DNA of 64,000 bases from Escherichia coli (GCF_003018235.1 NZ_CP027437.1); one strand, 5' to 3'. Shown: positions 47,941-50,701, counted from the stretch's first letter. Numbers and translations: made by a program. The notes: generated by a model from the letters alone, not told the origin.

Positions 47941-48156
47941 TTTTTGTAAAGAATCTGTCACGCTAAAAGATGTCGAACAAAAAACAATCACCTTCATCAT
48001 CTTTTTTACATAAAAACAATTAAAAACAATAATTTACATACATGATGATGATGGCGATAAAATCATAAAAATGCGCTTTTTTCCGCGCCGACCCGCCCCG
48101 TGGACAGGCCCACCCCACCAGGAGGACCCGCAAAAAAGGCGGCATATTTGCCGCCC
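47941..48156 (-). repeat. Copy A of the ~215-bp island-internal direct repeat (terminator + GC-rich core + AT-rich block)
   Basis: Aligns with 50489..50701. A 26-nt block is identical (minus strand CCACGGGGCGGGTCGGCGCGGAAAAA). GGGTCCTCCTGGT, TTGTTTTTTGTTC and TTTACAAAAAA are shared blocks. It starts with the hairpin terminator GGCGGCAAATATGCCGCC-TTTTTT of the capsid gene. Confidence 0.8.
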
Positions 48157-48169
48157 TGTAAACTGTGTA

Positions 48170-50065
48170 TCAGCCGGAAGCCGTACCGCTCGATTTGACC
48201 ATGCCGCGATAGTCCAGCGCGGCCACACCGGCATCAATACGAACCTTCCAGGCGACACCGTCAACGATGAAGCCTTCCTGCTGTTCAAGGTAAGGCTCGT
48301 CATTACCATCAAGATAAGCCACCTCGATTGTGTCCGTTCCCTGTGCTGAAAGCATGTACCATTGATTCACACTAACATCATCCAGACGAGGATCGACAAT
48401 AATATCCAGTAGCTTGTGATACGGGTTAAATATGCCGCTGTTTTTATCGGCCCCGAAAGGTGCGGTTGAATTAATCATTTGCAACGCGCGATCTTCCAGT
48501 GCTGCCGGAACTAACAGGAATTTAGGTGCAATGTTCAGCACCTCGCCGTTTTTATCTTTCTGTATGCGCATAGCGTGACGTGCTGCACTAAGCCCCGGCG
48601 TCGTCATGCCAAGATCGATAAGGTTGTTGTGTTTTTTATCAAACAAGGCCACACCATCAGACAGCTTGCCGTTTCCTGTAAGTACCAGATTAACCAGATT
48701 GCCAACCGTTCTGGCTGCTGCACGCCCCATAGCCATTGGCACGGTAGACAACTGATCAAGGTCATCATTGATTATCGCCTGGCGGGTAATACTGAAAATA
48801 TTCCCGTATGTAGCCAGCGCGATTGGCTCACCGCGATCGCTGGTGGTGATGTATTTATATTCTGCCCCTTCCGGCACTTTGTTTAATGTTGAAAAACCAT
48901 TCAGGCCAACGCGGCGGGCTTCACGGAAGTTTGACAGAGAACCTTTTTTAGTCCACTGGCGGAATGTTTCGCCGCTGTGCTCCCAGCCTGCCAGCACTGA
49001 TTTTTCAGCGCCACCAGCCAGGATGTAAGTAAAATCGCTGCTGCTGTGAGTGAATGCCGCATTAACAATCTGCGAACGCGTGCTGTAGCTGCCTGTGCTT
49101 ATGCCACGATGGGTTAATGATGCCTGTGCCATATCGAAAAGGCTCATCATGGCGTAAGGATTGCCGCGTTCGGCCTGTTCGTGACCAAGACGTGCGTTAA
49201 GCCCCTGACGCATGGCATCGCCGGTTATGTTGCCGTTATCCGTATACGCGTAGTAAAGATTTGCGGGGGTGTTTTTGTTGGTGGGTGTCGATTCCTTGCC
49301 CATAGCCAATAAAAGGCGTTCGCGCGCATCCTCAACGCTACAACCTGCGTCTGCCAGGCAGTTAATAGCCAGGTCGTTATATTTCCCGTTGAACGTGCCA
49401 AACAATTCGCGAATGCCGTTTAGTCGTTCCTGTTCGCCGCTGGCTTTGTTCTGGTTGATCATGTTTTTGATACTTTCCGGCATATTTGAAAAATCTCCGA
49501 TTCGTTTTGATTCAATTCTGGCCATTGCTGTAATCGCGGGTATAACCTCATCTGCGAAGCCGTTAGCCTTACACTCATTGCCATCCATCCAGGTTTCCGC
49601 CTCCATCATGGCGGTGATTTCCTGTTTGCTTTTTCCCGTTCTTCCGGCGTAGGTTTCCGCCATCGTGTCGCCCAGCTTGTCCATCAGGTCAGCAAAGCGG
49701 CGAACGTCGCCCGACACGCCAGAAGTAACACCACGGGGGGCATGTATCATCATCATTGCGTTAGCGGGCATCACGATGTGATCGCCACACATGGCAATAA
49801 ACGAGGCCATAGAAGCCGCTATGCCTTCAATGTGTACGATTTTTTTCGCCGGATGATTTTTCAGGGCGTTATAGATAGCCAGCCCCTGAAAGATGTCGCC
49901 GCCTGGTGAATGGATACGCAAATGGATTTCAGACACGTCACCACACGCGCTTATCTGGTCGGTTAATGTTGACGCCTGTACACCGTAACCGCCTATTTCG
50001 TCATAAATGCGAACGTGAAGGGCGTCGGCTTTTGCCTGTATGCTGTACCAGGATTTCATAGCCAT
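48170..50065 (-). CDS. Fusion protein: ClpP-like (S14/S49) prohead maturation protease + linker/scaffold-like region + Mu gpT-like (HK97-fold) major capsid protein
   Basis: The N-terminus carries ClpP hallmarks: IHSPGGDIFQGLAIYNAL, the Ser motif GIAASMASFI and the His motif MMMIHAP. The C-terminal ~330 aa align by eye with my recollection of the Mu T major head protein (...INDDLDQLSTVPMAMGRAAARTVGNLVNLVL... against ...IEDDNLGVYGPLMQEMGRAAGAHPDELVFALL...). An ATGA overlap with the upstream ORF suggests the real start is 50059. Confidence 0.8.
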   Translation of the reverse strand: MAMKSWYSIQAKADALHVRIYDEIGGYGVQASTLTDQISACGDVSEIHLRIHSPGGDIFQGLAIYNALKNHPAKKIVHIEGIAASMASFIAMCGDHIVMPANAMMMIHAPRGVTSGVSGDVRRFADLMDKLGDTMAETYAGRTGKSKQEITAMMEAETWMDGNECKANGFADEVIPAITAMARIESKRIGDFSNMPESIKNMINQNKASGEQERLNGIRELFGTFNGKYNDLAINCLADAGCSVEDARERLLLAMGKESTPTNKNTPANLYYAYTDNGNITGDAMRQGLNARLGHEQAERGNPYAMMSLFDMAQASLTHRGISTGSYSTRSQIVNAAFTHSSSDFTYILAGGAEKSVLAGWEHSGETFRQWTKKGSLSNFREARRVGLNGFSTLNKVPEGAEYKYITTSDRGEPIALATYGNIFSITRQAIINDDLDQLSTVPMAMGRAAARTVGNLVNLVLTGNGKLSDGVALFDKKHNNLIDLGMTTPGLSAARHAMRIQKDKNGEVLNIAPKFLLVPAALEDRALQMINSTAPFGADKNSGIFNPYHKLLDIIVDPRLDDVSVNQWYMLSAQGTDTIEVAYLDGNDEPYLEQQEGFIVDGVAWKVRIDAGVAALDYRGMVKSSGTASG

Positions 50066-50250
50066 GCCCCTAACGTGTGCCCATACCAGTACTCTACCGC
50101 GCTGCGTGCAATTTGCCCTTTGGTCGGTACTGGCATTCCTGGGTGATTTTCCCTTATGAACTGCTGATAGCGTTCAATCTTCTCCATCGTTCCGGCGTCT
50201 ATGTGCACTGTTGCGCTTTTATCCGGTTTTCTGGTGTTGTTCTCTGGCAT
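50056..50250 (-). CDS. Small ribbon-helix-helix-like protein (64 aa; ORF extends to 50283)
   Basis: Strong SD (GGAGG, 7 nt before the ATG at 50250). The pattern TVHIDAGTMEKIERYQQFI...TKGQIARSAVEYWY fits a strand-helix-helix fold. It is translationally coupled to the protease-capsid gene. Confidence 0.55.
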   Translation of the reverse strand: MPENNTRKPDKSATVHIDAGTMEKIERYQQFIRENHPGMPVPTKGQIARSAVEYWYGHTLGAWL

Positions 50251-50488
50251 AAATCCGCCTCCGTTTTGATTAACGGGCATCATTATTGATCGATAAAAGT
50301 AATAGATAAATCATTTTCTACCTAAAAATCAGATTATGATTTTTCTGATTATTTCGAGAAAAGCAAATCATTTGACGCATTATTGCTATTTTGGCAATAT
50401 TAAGTCTCATTCATTCCGGTAGTAGAAGTTCGTTTGTCGTACTAAAGCGCCTCCGGTAGCACCATCGGGGGCGCTTTTTTTGTGCCTG

Positions 50489-50701
50489 TTTTTTTTGTAA
50501 ATATTTTCGGGAATGTTCCAGTGGTGAACAAAAAACAACCATAATCGACACTGAAATTTTTATCAGCCAAATATATCAATAAGTTATGTTAGTGGTGATG
50601 GTGCCATAAAAATCAAAAAATGCGCCTTTTTCCGCGCCGACCCGCCCCGTGGATGCCCCCACCAACCAGGAGGACCCACAAAAAAGCCGGATTGCTCCGG
50701 C
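50489..50701 (-). repeat. Copy B of the ~215-bp island-internal direct repeat
   Basis: See copy A. It starts with the terminator hairpin AGCCGGAGCAATCCGGCT-TTTTT of the perC-like gene, whose stem sequence differs from copy A, and continues with the conserved GC-rich core. Confidence 0.8.

What the first reader, a model, noticed from the sequence alone, without database searches (positions are those of the whole stretch)
47941..50701. Two ~215-bp direct repeats with a GC-rich cos-like core bracket the capsid module
Seen in sequence: 47941-48156 and 50489-50701 are direct repeats 2548 bp apart. Read on the minus (coding) strand, each begins with the terminator hairpin of the upstream gene. The two stems differ in sequence but keep the same structure. 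Next comes the conserved core: GGGTCCTCCTGGTGGGGTGGGCCTGTCCACGGGGCGGGTCGGCGCGGAAAAAAGCGCATTTTTATGA in copy A and GGGTCCTCCTGGTTGGTGGGGGCATCCACGGGGCGGGTCGGCGCGGAAAAAGGCGCATTTTTTGA in copy B. They share a 26-nt identical block, CCACGGGGCGGGTCGGCGCGGAAAAA. An AT-rich stretch follows, with the shared blocks TTGTTTTTTGTTC and TTTACAAAAAA. The core is G-tract rich (GGGG/GGG/GGGG/GGG). From memory, the lambda cos junction reads ...GTTACGGGGCGGCGACCTCGCGGGTTTTCGCTATTTATGAAAATTTT. The island core shares ACGGGGCGG, CGCGG and (A/T)TTTATGA in the same order. Inference, three options: (a) the repeats are cos or packaging sites recognised by a helper terminase, possibly with the adjacent RHH protein; (b) they are helper-activated promoter or antitermination modules in front of the two last transcription units; (c) they are recombination substrates for the neighbouring second recombinase, which would excise or exchange a 2.5-kb capsid cassette. 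Two directly repeated cos-like sites inside one small element would be unusual.
Basis: partly seen in the sequence, partly recalled or inferred. Interest (0 to 1): 0.72.

Follow-up and report, generated by a model that had tools for sequence, protein, structure and literature searches.

The report
Two phage-type cos packaging sites
The two repeats are complete lambda-style DNA-packaging (cos) sites carried by a small phage satellite island in E. coli. Each resembles the cos of a different group of helper phages, so this is a variation on a trick already described for related islands.

Summary
The repeat is real. Copy A (47940-48129) and copy B (50489-50677), both on the minus strand, are each a full lambdoid cos region. 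Each has an exact lambda cosQ (GGGTCCT) 30-31 nt upstream of a cosN-like ACG|GGGCGG...CGCGG, followed by an R3 / IHF-site / inverted R2 / R1 cosB.

Their phage homologues lie between Rz and the small terminase gene. The host element is a 10.3-kb PICI at tRNA-Pro, of the EcCICFT073/EcCI042 family. It has no terS and no rpp.

The copies share cosQ-cosN (88% identity) but differ in cosB (65%). Copy A matches VT1-Sakai/Fels-1-type phages. Copy B matches 1720a-02/CP-1639/mEp460-type phages. The TerS proteins of these two phage groups differ only in the DNA-binding domain. All 34 close relatives with both flanks readable keep the same pair in the same order. Distant relatives have only the downstream cos.

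Most likely each cos lets a different helper terminase start packaging the island. Two functional cos sites were already shown for EcCICFT073 (Fillol-Salom 2018, 2019), so two cos sites are not new. The direct orientation and the two phage-type cosB classes look undescribed in the papers searched.

The promoter and recombinase readings are not supported. Function here is inferred, not tested.

The parts
47940..48129 (-). cos copy A (downstream of the capsid gene): a complete cosQ-cosN-cosB unit with a type-1 cosB
   Evidence: 85% identical over 195 nt to the Rz-terS intergenic region of VT1-Sakai and other Stx phages. Aligned with lambda cos. Coordinates.
48123..48129 (-). cosQ of copy A, GGGTCCT
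   Evidence: Identical to the lambda 7-mer 30 nt upstream of the nick. It lies 31 nt upstream of the putative first base of the cohesive end. It is GGGTCCT in every downstream copy surveyed.
48083..48101 (-). cosN-like site of copy A, ACG|GGGCGGGTCGGC|GCGG (nick positions inferred by alignment to lambda)
   Evidence: Alignment with lambda GTTACG|GGGCGGCGACCT|CGCGGG. The left half GGGCGG is conserved and the right half varies among relatives, as reported for lambda-like phages in PMC4669245.
48041..48056 (-). R3-like box of copy A, CGCCATCATCATCATG
   Evidence: The core TCATCATCATCATG is invariant in all type-1 copies, in VT1-Sakai and in the Kluyvera islands. The same box type occurs in Fels-1.
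48024..48036 (-). IHF-like site (I1 position) of copy A, TAAATTATTGTTT
   Evidence: 12/13 match to YAANNNNTTGATW at +63 from the inferred nick, between R3 and R2 as in lambda.
47991..48004 (-). R2-like box of copy A (inverted), AAAGATGATGAAGG
   Evidence: AAAGATGATG is invariant across type-1 copies and phages.
47965..47980 (-). R1-like box of copy A, TTGTTCGACATCTTTT
   Evidence: TTTTTTGTTCG(A/T)CATCTTT is invariant across type-1 copies and phages.
50489..50677 (-). cos copy B (upstream of the capsid operon): a complete cosQ-cosN-cosB unit with a type-2 cosB
   Evidence: 85% identical over 167 nt to the cos region of phages 1720a-02 and CP-1639, and 75% to mEp460. Aligned. Homology to EcCICFT073 stops at 50679, exactly where the unit begins.
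50671..50677 (-). cosQ of copy B, GGGTCCT
   Evidence: Lies 30 nt upstream of the putative cohesive end, as in lambda. Many relatives have AGGTACT here, a variant that also occupies this position in phage Fels-1 and in the single cos of the Yersinia and Moellerella islands.
50632..50650 (-). cosN-like site of copy B, identical to that of copy A
50590..50604 (-). R3-like box of copy B, GCACCATCACCACTA
   Evidence: CATCACCAC is invariant in all type-2 copies and in 1720a-02, CP-1639 and mEp460.
50574..50586 (-). IHF-like site of copy B, TAACTTATTGATA
   Evidence: 13/13 match to YAANNNNTTGATW at +62.
50539..50555 (-). R2-like box of copy B (inverted), TTCAGTGTCGATTATGG
   Evidence: GTGTCGA is invariant across type-2 copies and phages.
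50518..50531 (-). R1-like box of copy B, TTGTTCACCACTGG
   Evidence: TTGTTTTTTGTTC followed by a CAC-type box is conserved in type-2 copies and phages.
48132..48156 (-). Rho-independent terminator of the capsid gene. It precedes copy A and is not part of the cos homology.
   Evidence: Hairpin of -15.4 kcal/mol followed by a T-run. Absent from the phage homologues.
50680..50702 (-). Rho-independent terminator of perC. It precedes copy B and is not part of the cos homology.
   Evidence: Terminator scan and fold. EcCICFT073 has the same terminator with no cos after it.
48170..50065 (-). ClpP-like prohead protease / HK97-fold major capsid protein fusion gene, bracketed by the two cos sites
   Evidence: Pfam CLP_protease 1e-32 and Phage_capsid_4 3e-54. 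52% identical to the protease-capsid fusion of a lambdoid prophage.
50056..50250 (-).
   Evidence: phrog_4934, unknown function. Linked to the capsid gene in islands that have no upstream cos.
47621..47902 (-). 93-aa ORF immediately after copy A; function unknown; not TerS- or Rpp-like
   Evidence: phrog_1561, unknown function, and no Pfam hit. 92% identical at DNA level to the ORF that follows the inverted cos2 in EcCICFT073.
47325..57660 (-). The whole satellite island (about 10.3 kb) at tRNA-Pro(GGG). Gene order: integrase, AlpA-type HTH, DUF4222, RepA-type helicase, extra integrase, PerC, cos B, 64-aa ORF, capsid fusion, cos A, 93-aa ORF.
   Evidence: tRNA. Domains. att core GCACGAGAG and arm repeats CGTATAACTAAA at both ends. 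RefSeq annotation of the 99.9% identical SCU-111 locus. Synteny with EcCICFT073 and EcCI042.

Best explanation
Each repeat is a complete lambda-type cos site (cosQ, cosN, then a cosB of R3 / IHF site / inverted R2 / R1). They are carried by a 10.3-kb phage-inducible chromosomal island that encodes no terminase subunit and no Rpp.

The proposed mechanism is as follows. After induction the island replicates. The terminase of a lambdoid helper binds one island cos through its small subunit (TerS), nicks cosN, and packages the island in the direction of the genes. It terminates at a later cosQ-cosN once the head is full.

The two sites share cosQ-cosN but carry two different cosB classes. Copy A matches helpers with a VT1-Sakai/Fels-1-type TerS DNA-binding domain. 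Copy B matches helpers with a 1720a-02/CP-1639/mEp460-type domain. The island can therefore be started by either class of helper.

Shown here: homology, subsite anatomy, the two classes, their covariation with TerS, and conservation of the pair. Inferred: actual cutting, packaging and helper specificity.
For: **1. Homology to phage cos.**
- Copy A is 85% identical over about 195 nt to the region between Rz and the small terminase gene of VT1-Sakai and eight other Stx phages.
- Copy B is 85% identical over 167 nt to the same region of 1720a-02 and CP-1639.
- The record of phage mEp460_4F5 begins at CCACGGGGCGGG, with terS at nt 189. In lambda, nu1 starts at nt 191.

**2. Anatomy.**
- GGGTCCT lies 30-31 nt upstream of ACG|GGGCGG, as in lambda.
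- An IHF-consensus site sits between an R3-like box and an inverted R2-like box.
- The R-like boxes are the most conserved columns across islands and phages, including Kluyvera islands whose capsid protein is only 62% identical.

**3. Two classes.**
- A versus B: 88% in cosQ-cosN but 65% in cosB.
- A versus VT1-Sakai cosB is 84%, against 63% versus 1720a-02.
- B versus 1720a-02 cosB is 74%, against 67% versus VT1-Sakai.

**4. Covariation with TerS.**
- The TerS proteins of VT1-Sakai and 1720a-02 are 68/68 identical in residues 91-158 but only 11/37 identical in residues 29-65, which lie in the N-terminal part aligned with the lambda Nu1 DNA-binding domain.
- Across eight phages sampled from the hits plus the Kluyvera mini-TerS, six phages fit two classes and two are intermediate. 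The APGSNEK-type stretch goes with CATCATCAT/GATGATG boxes. The GGHESNLK-type stretch goes with CATCACCAC/GTGTCGA boxes.

**5. Conservation of the pair.**
- All 8 E. coli islands fetched from complete genomes have type 2 upstream and type 1 downstream, in the same orientation.
- So do all 26 IMG/VR loci with a capsid protein at least 89% identical and both flanks present.

**6. No island packaging protein.** No TerS- or Rpp-like protein was found among the island ORFs scanned.

**7. Precedent and rules.**
- The two cos sites of EcCICFT073 each confer phage-mediated transfer (PMC6092414, PMC6739421).
- In lambda-like phages, initiation specificity lies in TerS-cosB, while termination is independent of cosB (PMC4669245).

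**8. Candidate helpers.**
- Type-2 cosB plus its TerS occurs in 228 E. coli genomes. Type-1 cosB occurs in 621.
- Nine island-bearing strains listed also appear among the 60 sampled type-2 prophage carriers. About 0.7 would be expected at random. This comparison is not corrected for shared ancestry.
Against: - No packaging, end-mapping or transfer data exist for this island or its close relatives. All function is inferred from sequence and from experiments on EcCICFT073 and lambda.
- In the embedded island L062 (L032 shows the same third-type cos at the same position), the surrounding prophage, which is the presumed helper, has a third cosB type and a different TerS. Possession of T1 and T2 sites therefore does not track the nearest prophage.
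- In EcCICFT073, deleting cos2 raised transfer by lambda and phi80. A second cos can be a cost with some helpers.
- Two direct cos sites that both have cosQ-cosN could yield sub-genomic or over-length molecules. In most relatives the right halves of the two cohesive ends differ.
- The class assignment of copy B is less sharp than that of copy A (74% versus 67% in cosB).
Confidence: 0.6

Rival explanations
1. Both copies are cos sites, but they do not serve two helper classes. One, probably the ancestral downstream copy A, is the working packaging site. Copy B either adds termination points, so that a cos falls within the head-full window more often, or acts as a multicopy decoy that titrates helper terminase and so interferes with the helper.
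For: - Distant relatives manage with the single downstream cos.
- Termination needs only cosQ and cosN and ignores cosB class (PMC4669245).
- The cosN blocks of A and B are identical in the window, and also in Oki1679, L040 and L054-L056. Mixed A/B ends would therefore anneal in those islands.
- The island lacks Rpp, which is the known interference protein of this family.
Against: - The cosB of copy B keeps every R-like box and the IHF site of a specific phage class. Neither termination nor simple cosN decoy activity would require that.
- In most relatives the cohesive-end right halves of A and B differ.
Confidence: 0.2
2. Copy B is a passenger: a cos segment picked up by recombination with a co-resident prophage and kept by descent in one clonal island lineage, with no present function.
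For: - It is confined to the E. coli EcCI042-like clade.
- cosN right halves look mosaic between islands and phages, which suggests frequent exchange.
- EcCICFT073 cos2 is dispensable for transfer by lambda and phi80.
Against: - It is present in 34 of 34 close relatives with both flanks readable, although these sit at different integration sites and have different neighbouring genes.
- Differences among islands fall in the spacers and the cohesive-end right half, not in the R-like boxes, the IHF site or the cosN left half.
Confidence: 0.1
3. The repeats are helper-responsive promoter or regulatory modules for the two last transcription units. A related idea is that TerS and IHF binding at copy B controls the capsid operon.
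For: - Each copy follows a terminator and precedes a gene or operon.
- TerS is a winged-helix DNA-binding protein, and an IHF-like site is present.
- The block TTTACAAAAAA is shared by both copies and VT1-Sakai but not by 1720a-02.
Against: - No sigma-70-like promoter lies on the coding strand inside either repeat.
- Homology to EcCICFT073 ends exactly at copy B. By my own unscored reading, the hairpin and palindrome-rich region upstream of the capsid operon resembles the one in EcCICFT073, where it follows the PerC terminator with no cos.
- In EcCICFT073 the 93-aa ORF is preceded by an inverted cos.
- Homology to phage cos explains the whole unit.
Confidence: 0.07
4. The repeats are recombination sites for the second integrase (50981-51994), which would excise or exchange the 2.5-kb capsid cassette.
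For: They are direct repeats flanking a discrete gene cassette, next to an extra tyrosine recombinase gene.
Against: - All seven other E. coli islands fetched have both repeats but no second integrase.
- The literature attributes such extra integrases in the PICI late zone to capture from helper prophages (PMC10111431).
- The repeats are fully accounted for as phage cos homologues.
Confidence: 0.02

Closest known systems
EcCICFT073 cos1/cos2 (Gram-negative PICI; Fillol-Salom et al. 2018 ISME J, PMC6092414; 2019 Mol Cell, PMC6739421)
   Same: - Same island family: synteny and DNA homology in the regulatory region, DUF4222, perC with its terminator, and the 93-aa ORF.
- Two cos sites with lambda-like cosQ and cosN in the late region, and no terS.
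- Packaging depends on helper terminase.
- One of its sites, cos2, is also a phage-type cos: it is 93% identical over 179 nt, cosB included, to PhiR12-type phages.
   Different: - In EcCICFT073 the two sites are inverted, about 0.8 kb apart, and bracket rppA.
- Its cos1 has a non-phage cosB that is read by the RppA-TerS heterodimer.
- Its cohesive end is the lambda sequence GGGCGGCGACCT.
- In the window the sites are direct, 2.55 kb apart, and bracket the capsid gene. There is no rpp, and both cosB regions are phage-type but of two different classes.
Bacteriophage lambda cos (cosQ-cosN-cosB) and the lambda / 21 / N15 packaging-specificity classes (Feiss laboratory; PMC4669245, PMC9026076)
   Same: - The 7-mer GGGTCCT lies 30-31 nt from the nick.
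[quoted passage not shown]
- R3, IHF site, inverted R2, then R1.
- In the phage homologues the site sits about 190 nt upstream of terS.
- Specificity classes are defined by matching TerS DNA-binding domains and cosB.
   Different: - The R-box sequences are unrelated to those of lambda.
- R3 lies about 10 nt closer to cosN.
- The sites sit in a satellite, not in front of a terminase gene.
- Two classes occur side by side in one replicon.
cos-carrying SaPIs (SaPIbov5; SaPIbov4 with two putative cos sites) and the helper-embedded PICI 11capE
   Same: - The satellite copies the helper's cos instead of encoding a terminase subunit.
- SaPIbov5 also carries a capsid-protein homologue (PMC5052747, PMC8569155).
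- 11capE shares a 258-bp, 90% identical segment with its helper at the cos position (PMC10111431).
   Different: - The SaPIs have Gram-positive hosts and unrelated cos sequences.
- No evidence was reported there for two cosB classes in one element.

Membership tests
Lambda-type cos site | cosQ 7-mer about 30 bp upstream of the nick site | tested here: met
   GGGTCCT lies 31 nt (A) and 30 nt (B) upstream of the aligned nick. It is identical to the lambda 7-mer at the same distance.
Lambda-type cos site | [quoted passage not shown] | tested here: met
   ACG|GGGCGGGTCGGC|GCGG in the island against lambda ACG|GGGCGGCGACCT|CGCGG. Variation among relatives is confined to positions 7-12, as described in PMC4669245.
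Lambda-type cos site | cosB with three TerS-binding R elements (R2 inverted) and an IHF site between R3 and R2 | tested here: met
   Three related boxes with the middle one inverted, plus a 12-13/13 match to the IHF consensus at +62/63. Protein binding was not tested.
Lambda-type cos site | In phages, the homologous sequence lies between the lysis genes and terS | tested here: met
   VT1-Sakai, 1720a-02, CP-1639, PhiR40_1, Fels-1, phi458 and mEp043. In mEp460 the match lies downstream of Rz at the end of the linear record. In mEp460_4F5 it lies at the start of the record, upstream of terS.
Lambda-type cos site | Terminase nicks there, producing the cohesive ends of packaged DNA | not testable with these tools
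   The only hint is that the mEp460_4F5 record starts at CCACGGGGCGGG. How that record's start was chosen is unknown.
Gram-negative PICI (EcCICFT073 / EcCI042 family) | 10-20 kb island with an integrase at one end, att repeats, an AlpA-type regulator, its own replication module, and all main genes in one direction | tested here: met
   10.3 kb at tRNA-Pro. The integrase, HTH, DUF4222, RepA-type helicase, iteron-like repeats at 52238-52429, and perC are all on the minus strand.
Gram-negative PICI (EcCICFT073 / EcCI042 family) | Sequence homology and synteny with the reference islands | tested here: met
   Six homologous blocks with EcCICFT073 at 73-93% identity. Collinear at 88% with the E. coli 042 island from cos B to the island end.
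Gram-negative PICI (EcCICFT073 / EcCI042 family) | Lacks terminase, portal, tail and lysis genes and depends on a helper | tested here: inconclusive
   No such genes are in the island. Helper dependence, induction and transfer were not testable.
Rpp-type packaging redirection | An rpp gene (135-154 aa, TerS-like winged HTH) directly downstream of a cos with a non-phage cosB | tested here: not met
   The ORF after copy A is a 93-aa protein of unknown function with no TerS or HTH match. Both cosB regions are phage-type. The island is therefore not filed under Rpp-type packaging.
Capsid-forming PICI (cf-PICI) | Encodes the full capsid and packaging set (terS, terL, HNH, portal, protease, capsid, connectors) | tested here: not met
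   Only a protease-capsid fusion gene is present.

The most novel reading that the evidence does not exclude
Copy B is not only a packaging site. It lies directly 5' of the control region of the satellite's capsid operon. Helper TerS and IHF binding there may couple satellite capsid expression to the helper's late phase, or may soak up terminase of one helper class as an Rpp-independent interference mechanism. The satellite would then use a cos site as a sensor or decoy for a helper late protein.
Probability: 0.08. Interest if true: 0.65.

Novelty: new variant of a known kind. Interest (0 to 1): 0.4.

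Why it matters
- **An unexplained second site.** Work on EcCICFT073 left open why an E. coli PICI has a second cos site. Its cos2 is dispensable, and even costly, with lambda and phi80 as helpers.
- **A testable answer.** The second site may belong to a different TerS-cosB specificity class, which would widen the set of helper phages that can mobilise the island. In this clade both sites are phage-type but of different classes, and EcCICFT073 cos2 also turns out to be a phage-type cos.
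- **A route without Rpp.** These islands would be packaged by simple mimicry of helper cosB.
- **Practical interest.** The matching phage classes include Shiga-toxin phages of O157, O111, O121 and O145 strains. The sites therefore bear on which prophages spread perC-carrying islands among STEC.
- **Limits.** The advance is incremental, because the kind of element and the presence of two cos sites are already published.

Tried and rejected
- **'Copy B is losing its cosQ'.** Five of the 8 fetched islands and about 20 IMG/VR loci have AGGTACT in place of GGGTCCT. I first read this as decay. I rejected that because the same variant occupies the cosQ position in phage Fels-1 and in the single cos of the Yersinia and Moellerella islands.
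- **Concerted evolution of cosN within an island, to keep A and B ends compatible.** This holds for the window, Oki1679, L040 and L054-L056 but not for most relatives. It is not a general rule.
- **Link to the second integrase.** Rejected.
- **Known RNA family in the repeats.** Rfam at E<=0.1 over 47000-58000 gave only the tRNA and a sub-threshold miRNA-model hit at 52353-52430.
- **Promoter in the repeats.** None found on the coding strand.
- **A resident helper in the window's own genome.** Type-2 cosB has two places in SCU-111. I could not locate the second one, because the tool lists one place per record and SCU-111 was not among the 60 sampled rows.
- **Relatives in GTDB species representatives.** Only four full-length hits. 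The IMG/VR scan gave the usable sample.
- **Literature.** Searches for 'two cos sites' with satellite, for EcCI042, and for cosB/PICI/Stx found no description of this arrangement. The library does not cover subscription journals.

Full report
**1.

The two segments are direct repeats 2548-2549 nt apart. Read on the minus strand they align over about 215 nt at 79% mean column identity.

The similarity is uneven. It is 63/72 (88%) in the G+C-rich first part and 80/123 (65%) in the A+T-rich part. The hairpins in front of each copy are the terminators of perC and of the capsid gene. They fold well (-12.6 and -15.4 kcal/mol), but they differ in sequence and lie outside the homologous unit.

**2. 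The setting is a satellite island.**

The repeats lie in a 10.3-kb island next to tRNA-Pro(GGG) at 57650-57726. The island has an att core GCACGAGAG and arm-type repeats CGTATAACTAAA at both ends.

Its genes, all on the minus strand, run in this order:
- a P4-type integrase
- an AlpA-type HTH protein
- a DUF4222 protein
- a RepA-type helicase
- an extra integrase
- PerC
- copy B
- a 64-aa ORF
- a ClpP-protease / HK97-fold capsid fusion
- copy A
- a 93-aa ORF

A 99.9% identical locus is in E. coli SCU-111, between yejM-proL and yejO-narP. The island is syntenic and partly homologous with EcCICFT073, the model Gram-negative PICI. It is collinear at 88% with the island of E. coli 042 from copy B to the island end. 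It has no terS, terL or rpp.

**3. The repeats are cos sites.**

Copy A is about 85% identical over 195 nt to an unannotated stretch of nine Stx phages, including VT1-Sakai. It is about 74% identical to mEp460 and its relatives. Copy B is 85% identical over 167 nt to phages 1720a-02 and CP-1639.

In the phages whose flanks I fetched, the stretch lies after the lysis gene Rz and directly upstream of the small terminase gene. That is the position of lambda cos. In mEp460 it sits at the end of the linear record. The record of mEp460_4F5 starts at CCACGGGGCGGG, with terS at nt 189, against nt 191 for nu1 in lambda.

Aligned with lambda, each island copy has the following features:
- GGGTCCT, the 7-mer found in lambda 30 nt before the nick. 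I recall this as cosQ, bp 48473-48479. The position and identity are seen directly. It lies 31 nt (A) and 30 nt (B) from the nick.
- ACG|GGGCGG...|CGCGG, matching lambda cosN.
- Then an R3-like box, a 12-13/13 match to the IHF consensus, an inverted R2-like box and an R1-like box.

**4. The two copies belong to two cosB classes.**

| | R3-like box | R2-like box | R1-like box | Matching phages |
|---|---|---|---|---|
| Copy A | CGCCATCATCATCATG | AAAGATGATG | TTCGACATCTTT | VT1-Sakai, Fels-1 |
| Copy B | GCACCATCACCAC | AGTGTCGAT | TTCACCACTGG | 1720a-02, CP-1639, mEp460, phi458 |

The TerS proteins of VT1-Sakai and 1720a-02 are identical in residues 91-158 (68/68). They share only 11/37 residues in positions 29-65, which lie in the N-terminal part aligned with the lambda Nu1 DNA-binding domain. 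Across eight phages sampled from the hits and the Kluyvera mini-TerS, the box type follows the type of that stretch, with PhiR40_1 and mEp043 intermediate.

This is the pattern of the classical lambda / 21 / N15 packaging specificities. There, initiation depends on the match between TerS and cosB, while termination needs only cosQ and cosN (PMC4669245).

**5. The pair is conserved, and the upstream copy is a derived gain.**

All eight E. coli islands fetched from complete genomes carry type 2 upstream and type 1 downstream of the capsid gene, in the same orientation. So do all 26 IMG/VR loci with a capsid protein at least 89% identical and both flanks present. L053 was missed by my pattern only because its cosN reads ACGAGG. 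These islands sit at different chromosomal sites and even inside prophage terminase genes.

Relatives with capsid proteins 59-63% identical (Kluyvera, Yersinia, Moellerella and IMG/VR loci) have one cos, downstream of the capsid gene. In the Kluyvera and Yersinia loci it is followed by a 63-74-aa ORF that starts like a TerS DNA-binding domain; only the Kluyvera one was scored (phrog_141, 1e-13).

Homology between the window island and EcCICFT073 stops at 50679, exactly where copy B begins. After the shared perC terminator, EcCICFT073 has no cos before its capsid operon.

**6. What is already known.**

Fillol-Salom et al. (2018) showed the following for EcCICFT073:
- It carries two cos sites with lambda-like cosQ and cosN.
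- Each site mobilises a plasmid.
- Deleting both abolishes transfer.
- Deleting cos2 increases transfer.

They also noted that SaPIbov4 has two putative cos sites. Their 2019 paper showed that cos1 has a non-phage cosB read by an RppA-TerS heterodimer. Murialdo and Feiss (2022) reviewed this work. A helper-embedded PICI sharing 258 bp with its helper at the cos position has also been reported.

I located the EcCICFT073 sites. They are inverted and bracket rppA. Its cos2 is 93% identical over 179 nt, cosB included, to PhiR12-type phages. The papers I read do not mention this for cos2.

So two cos sites in a PICI are not new. What I did not find described is an Rpp-less clade with two directly repeated, fully phage-type cos sites of two TerS-specificity classes.

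**7. Most likely mechanism.**

Helper terminase starts at the cos whose cosB its TerS recognises. It packages in the direction of the genes and stops at a later cosQ-cosN once the head is full. The two sites would let two helper classes start packaging.

Candidate helpers are common. Type-2 cosB with its TerS occurs in 228 of 5,426 complete E. coli genomes, and type-1 cosB occurs in 621. Nine island-bearing strains listed recur among the 60 sampled type-2 carriers. About 0.7 would be expected at random, but STEC lineages are related and rich in prophages, so this is only suggestive.

My confidence is about 0.9 that these are cos sites and about 0.6 for the full dual-specificity statement.

**8. 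Weak points.**

- Nothing here is experimental.
- In the embedded island L062 the surrounding prophage has a third cosB and TerS type, and L032 shows the same third-type cos.
- A second cos was costly in EcCICFT073.
- In most relatives the cohesive-end right halves of the two copies differ. Such mismatches reduce viability but do not abolish it in lambda.
- Copy B's class assignment rests on the boxes more than on overall identity.

**9. Rivals.**

- One working cos plus an auxiliary or decoy copy: 0.2.
- A passenger copy with no function: 0.1.
- Promoter or regulatory modules: 0.07. There is no coding-strand promoter in the repeats, and EcCICFT073 has no cos between its PerC terminator and its capsid operon.
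- Substrates of the second integrase: 0.02. Seven islands have the repeats but not that gene.

**10. Verdict.**

The finding is real and correctly recognised as cos-like. It is a new variant of a published kind of system. Interest is moderate. It offers a concrete, testable reason for second cos sites in PICIs, but it does not overturn anything.

Noticed in passing
window 50372-50487, + strand: Just downstream of copy B, on the strand opposite the genes, there is a promoter-like site (TTGACG-18-AATATT, 50372-50401). It is followed by a strong terminator-like hairpin with a T-run (50444-50487). Together they could give an antisense RNA of about 80 nt in front of the capsid operon. EcCICFT073 has an A-run / GC hairpin / T-run at the equivalent place.
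   Followed up: partly
window 50981-51994, - strand: This is a second tyrosine integrase in the late zone, between the replication module and perC. None of the seven other E. coli islands fetched has it. PMC10111431 says such extra integrases in PICIs resemble helper-prophage integrases.
   Followed up: partly
window 52238-52429: Three copies of CCTCACTTTT(A)CTCCTCACTTTTT are spaced 83-85 nt apart, together with inverted copies. They lie directly downstream of the RepA-type helicase gene (52428-53828). This is probably the island's replication origin.
   Followed up: no
L009 7448-7639; L010 about 9126-9317; L011 9083-9307: In the Kluyvera and Yersinia relatives the single cos is followed by a 63-74-aa ORF that is just a TerS N-terminal DNA-binding domain (phrog_141, 1e-13). 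This 'mini-TerS' sits where rpp sits in EcCICFT073. It might redirect or mimic helper TerS.
   Followed up: partly
L008 about 13120-13345 (EcCICFT073 cos2): The unexplained cos2 of EcCICFT073 is 93% identical over 179 nt, cosB region included, to PhiR12-type E. coli phages. It has repeated CCGGACAT boxes. It therefore looks like a complete phage-type cos rather than a site without a recognisable cosB.
   Followed up: partly
L021 (SCU-171) and L062/L032 (IMG/VR): In the SCU-171 and L062 loci, islands of this clade are inserted inside a prophage large-terminase gene; L032 shows the same cos layout as L062. This is the helper-embedded PICI configuration. In L062 the surrounding prophage has a different cosB and a 179-aa TerS of another type.
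   Followed up: partly
window 47385-47417 and 57465-57520: Clusters of CGTATAACTAAA-type repeats lie at both island ends. They are probably arm-type integrase binding sites. The att core GCACGAGAG at about 47325 matches the 3' end of tRNA-Pro.
   Followed up: no
window 44629-47220, + strand: The neighbouring autotransporter gene (yejO-like, 863 aa) is an intact ORF in the window. In the otherwise near-identical SCU-111 locus it is annotated as a frameshifted pseudogene. The window is therefore probably not from SCU-111 itself.
   Followed up: no
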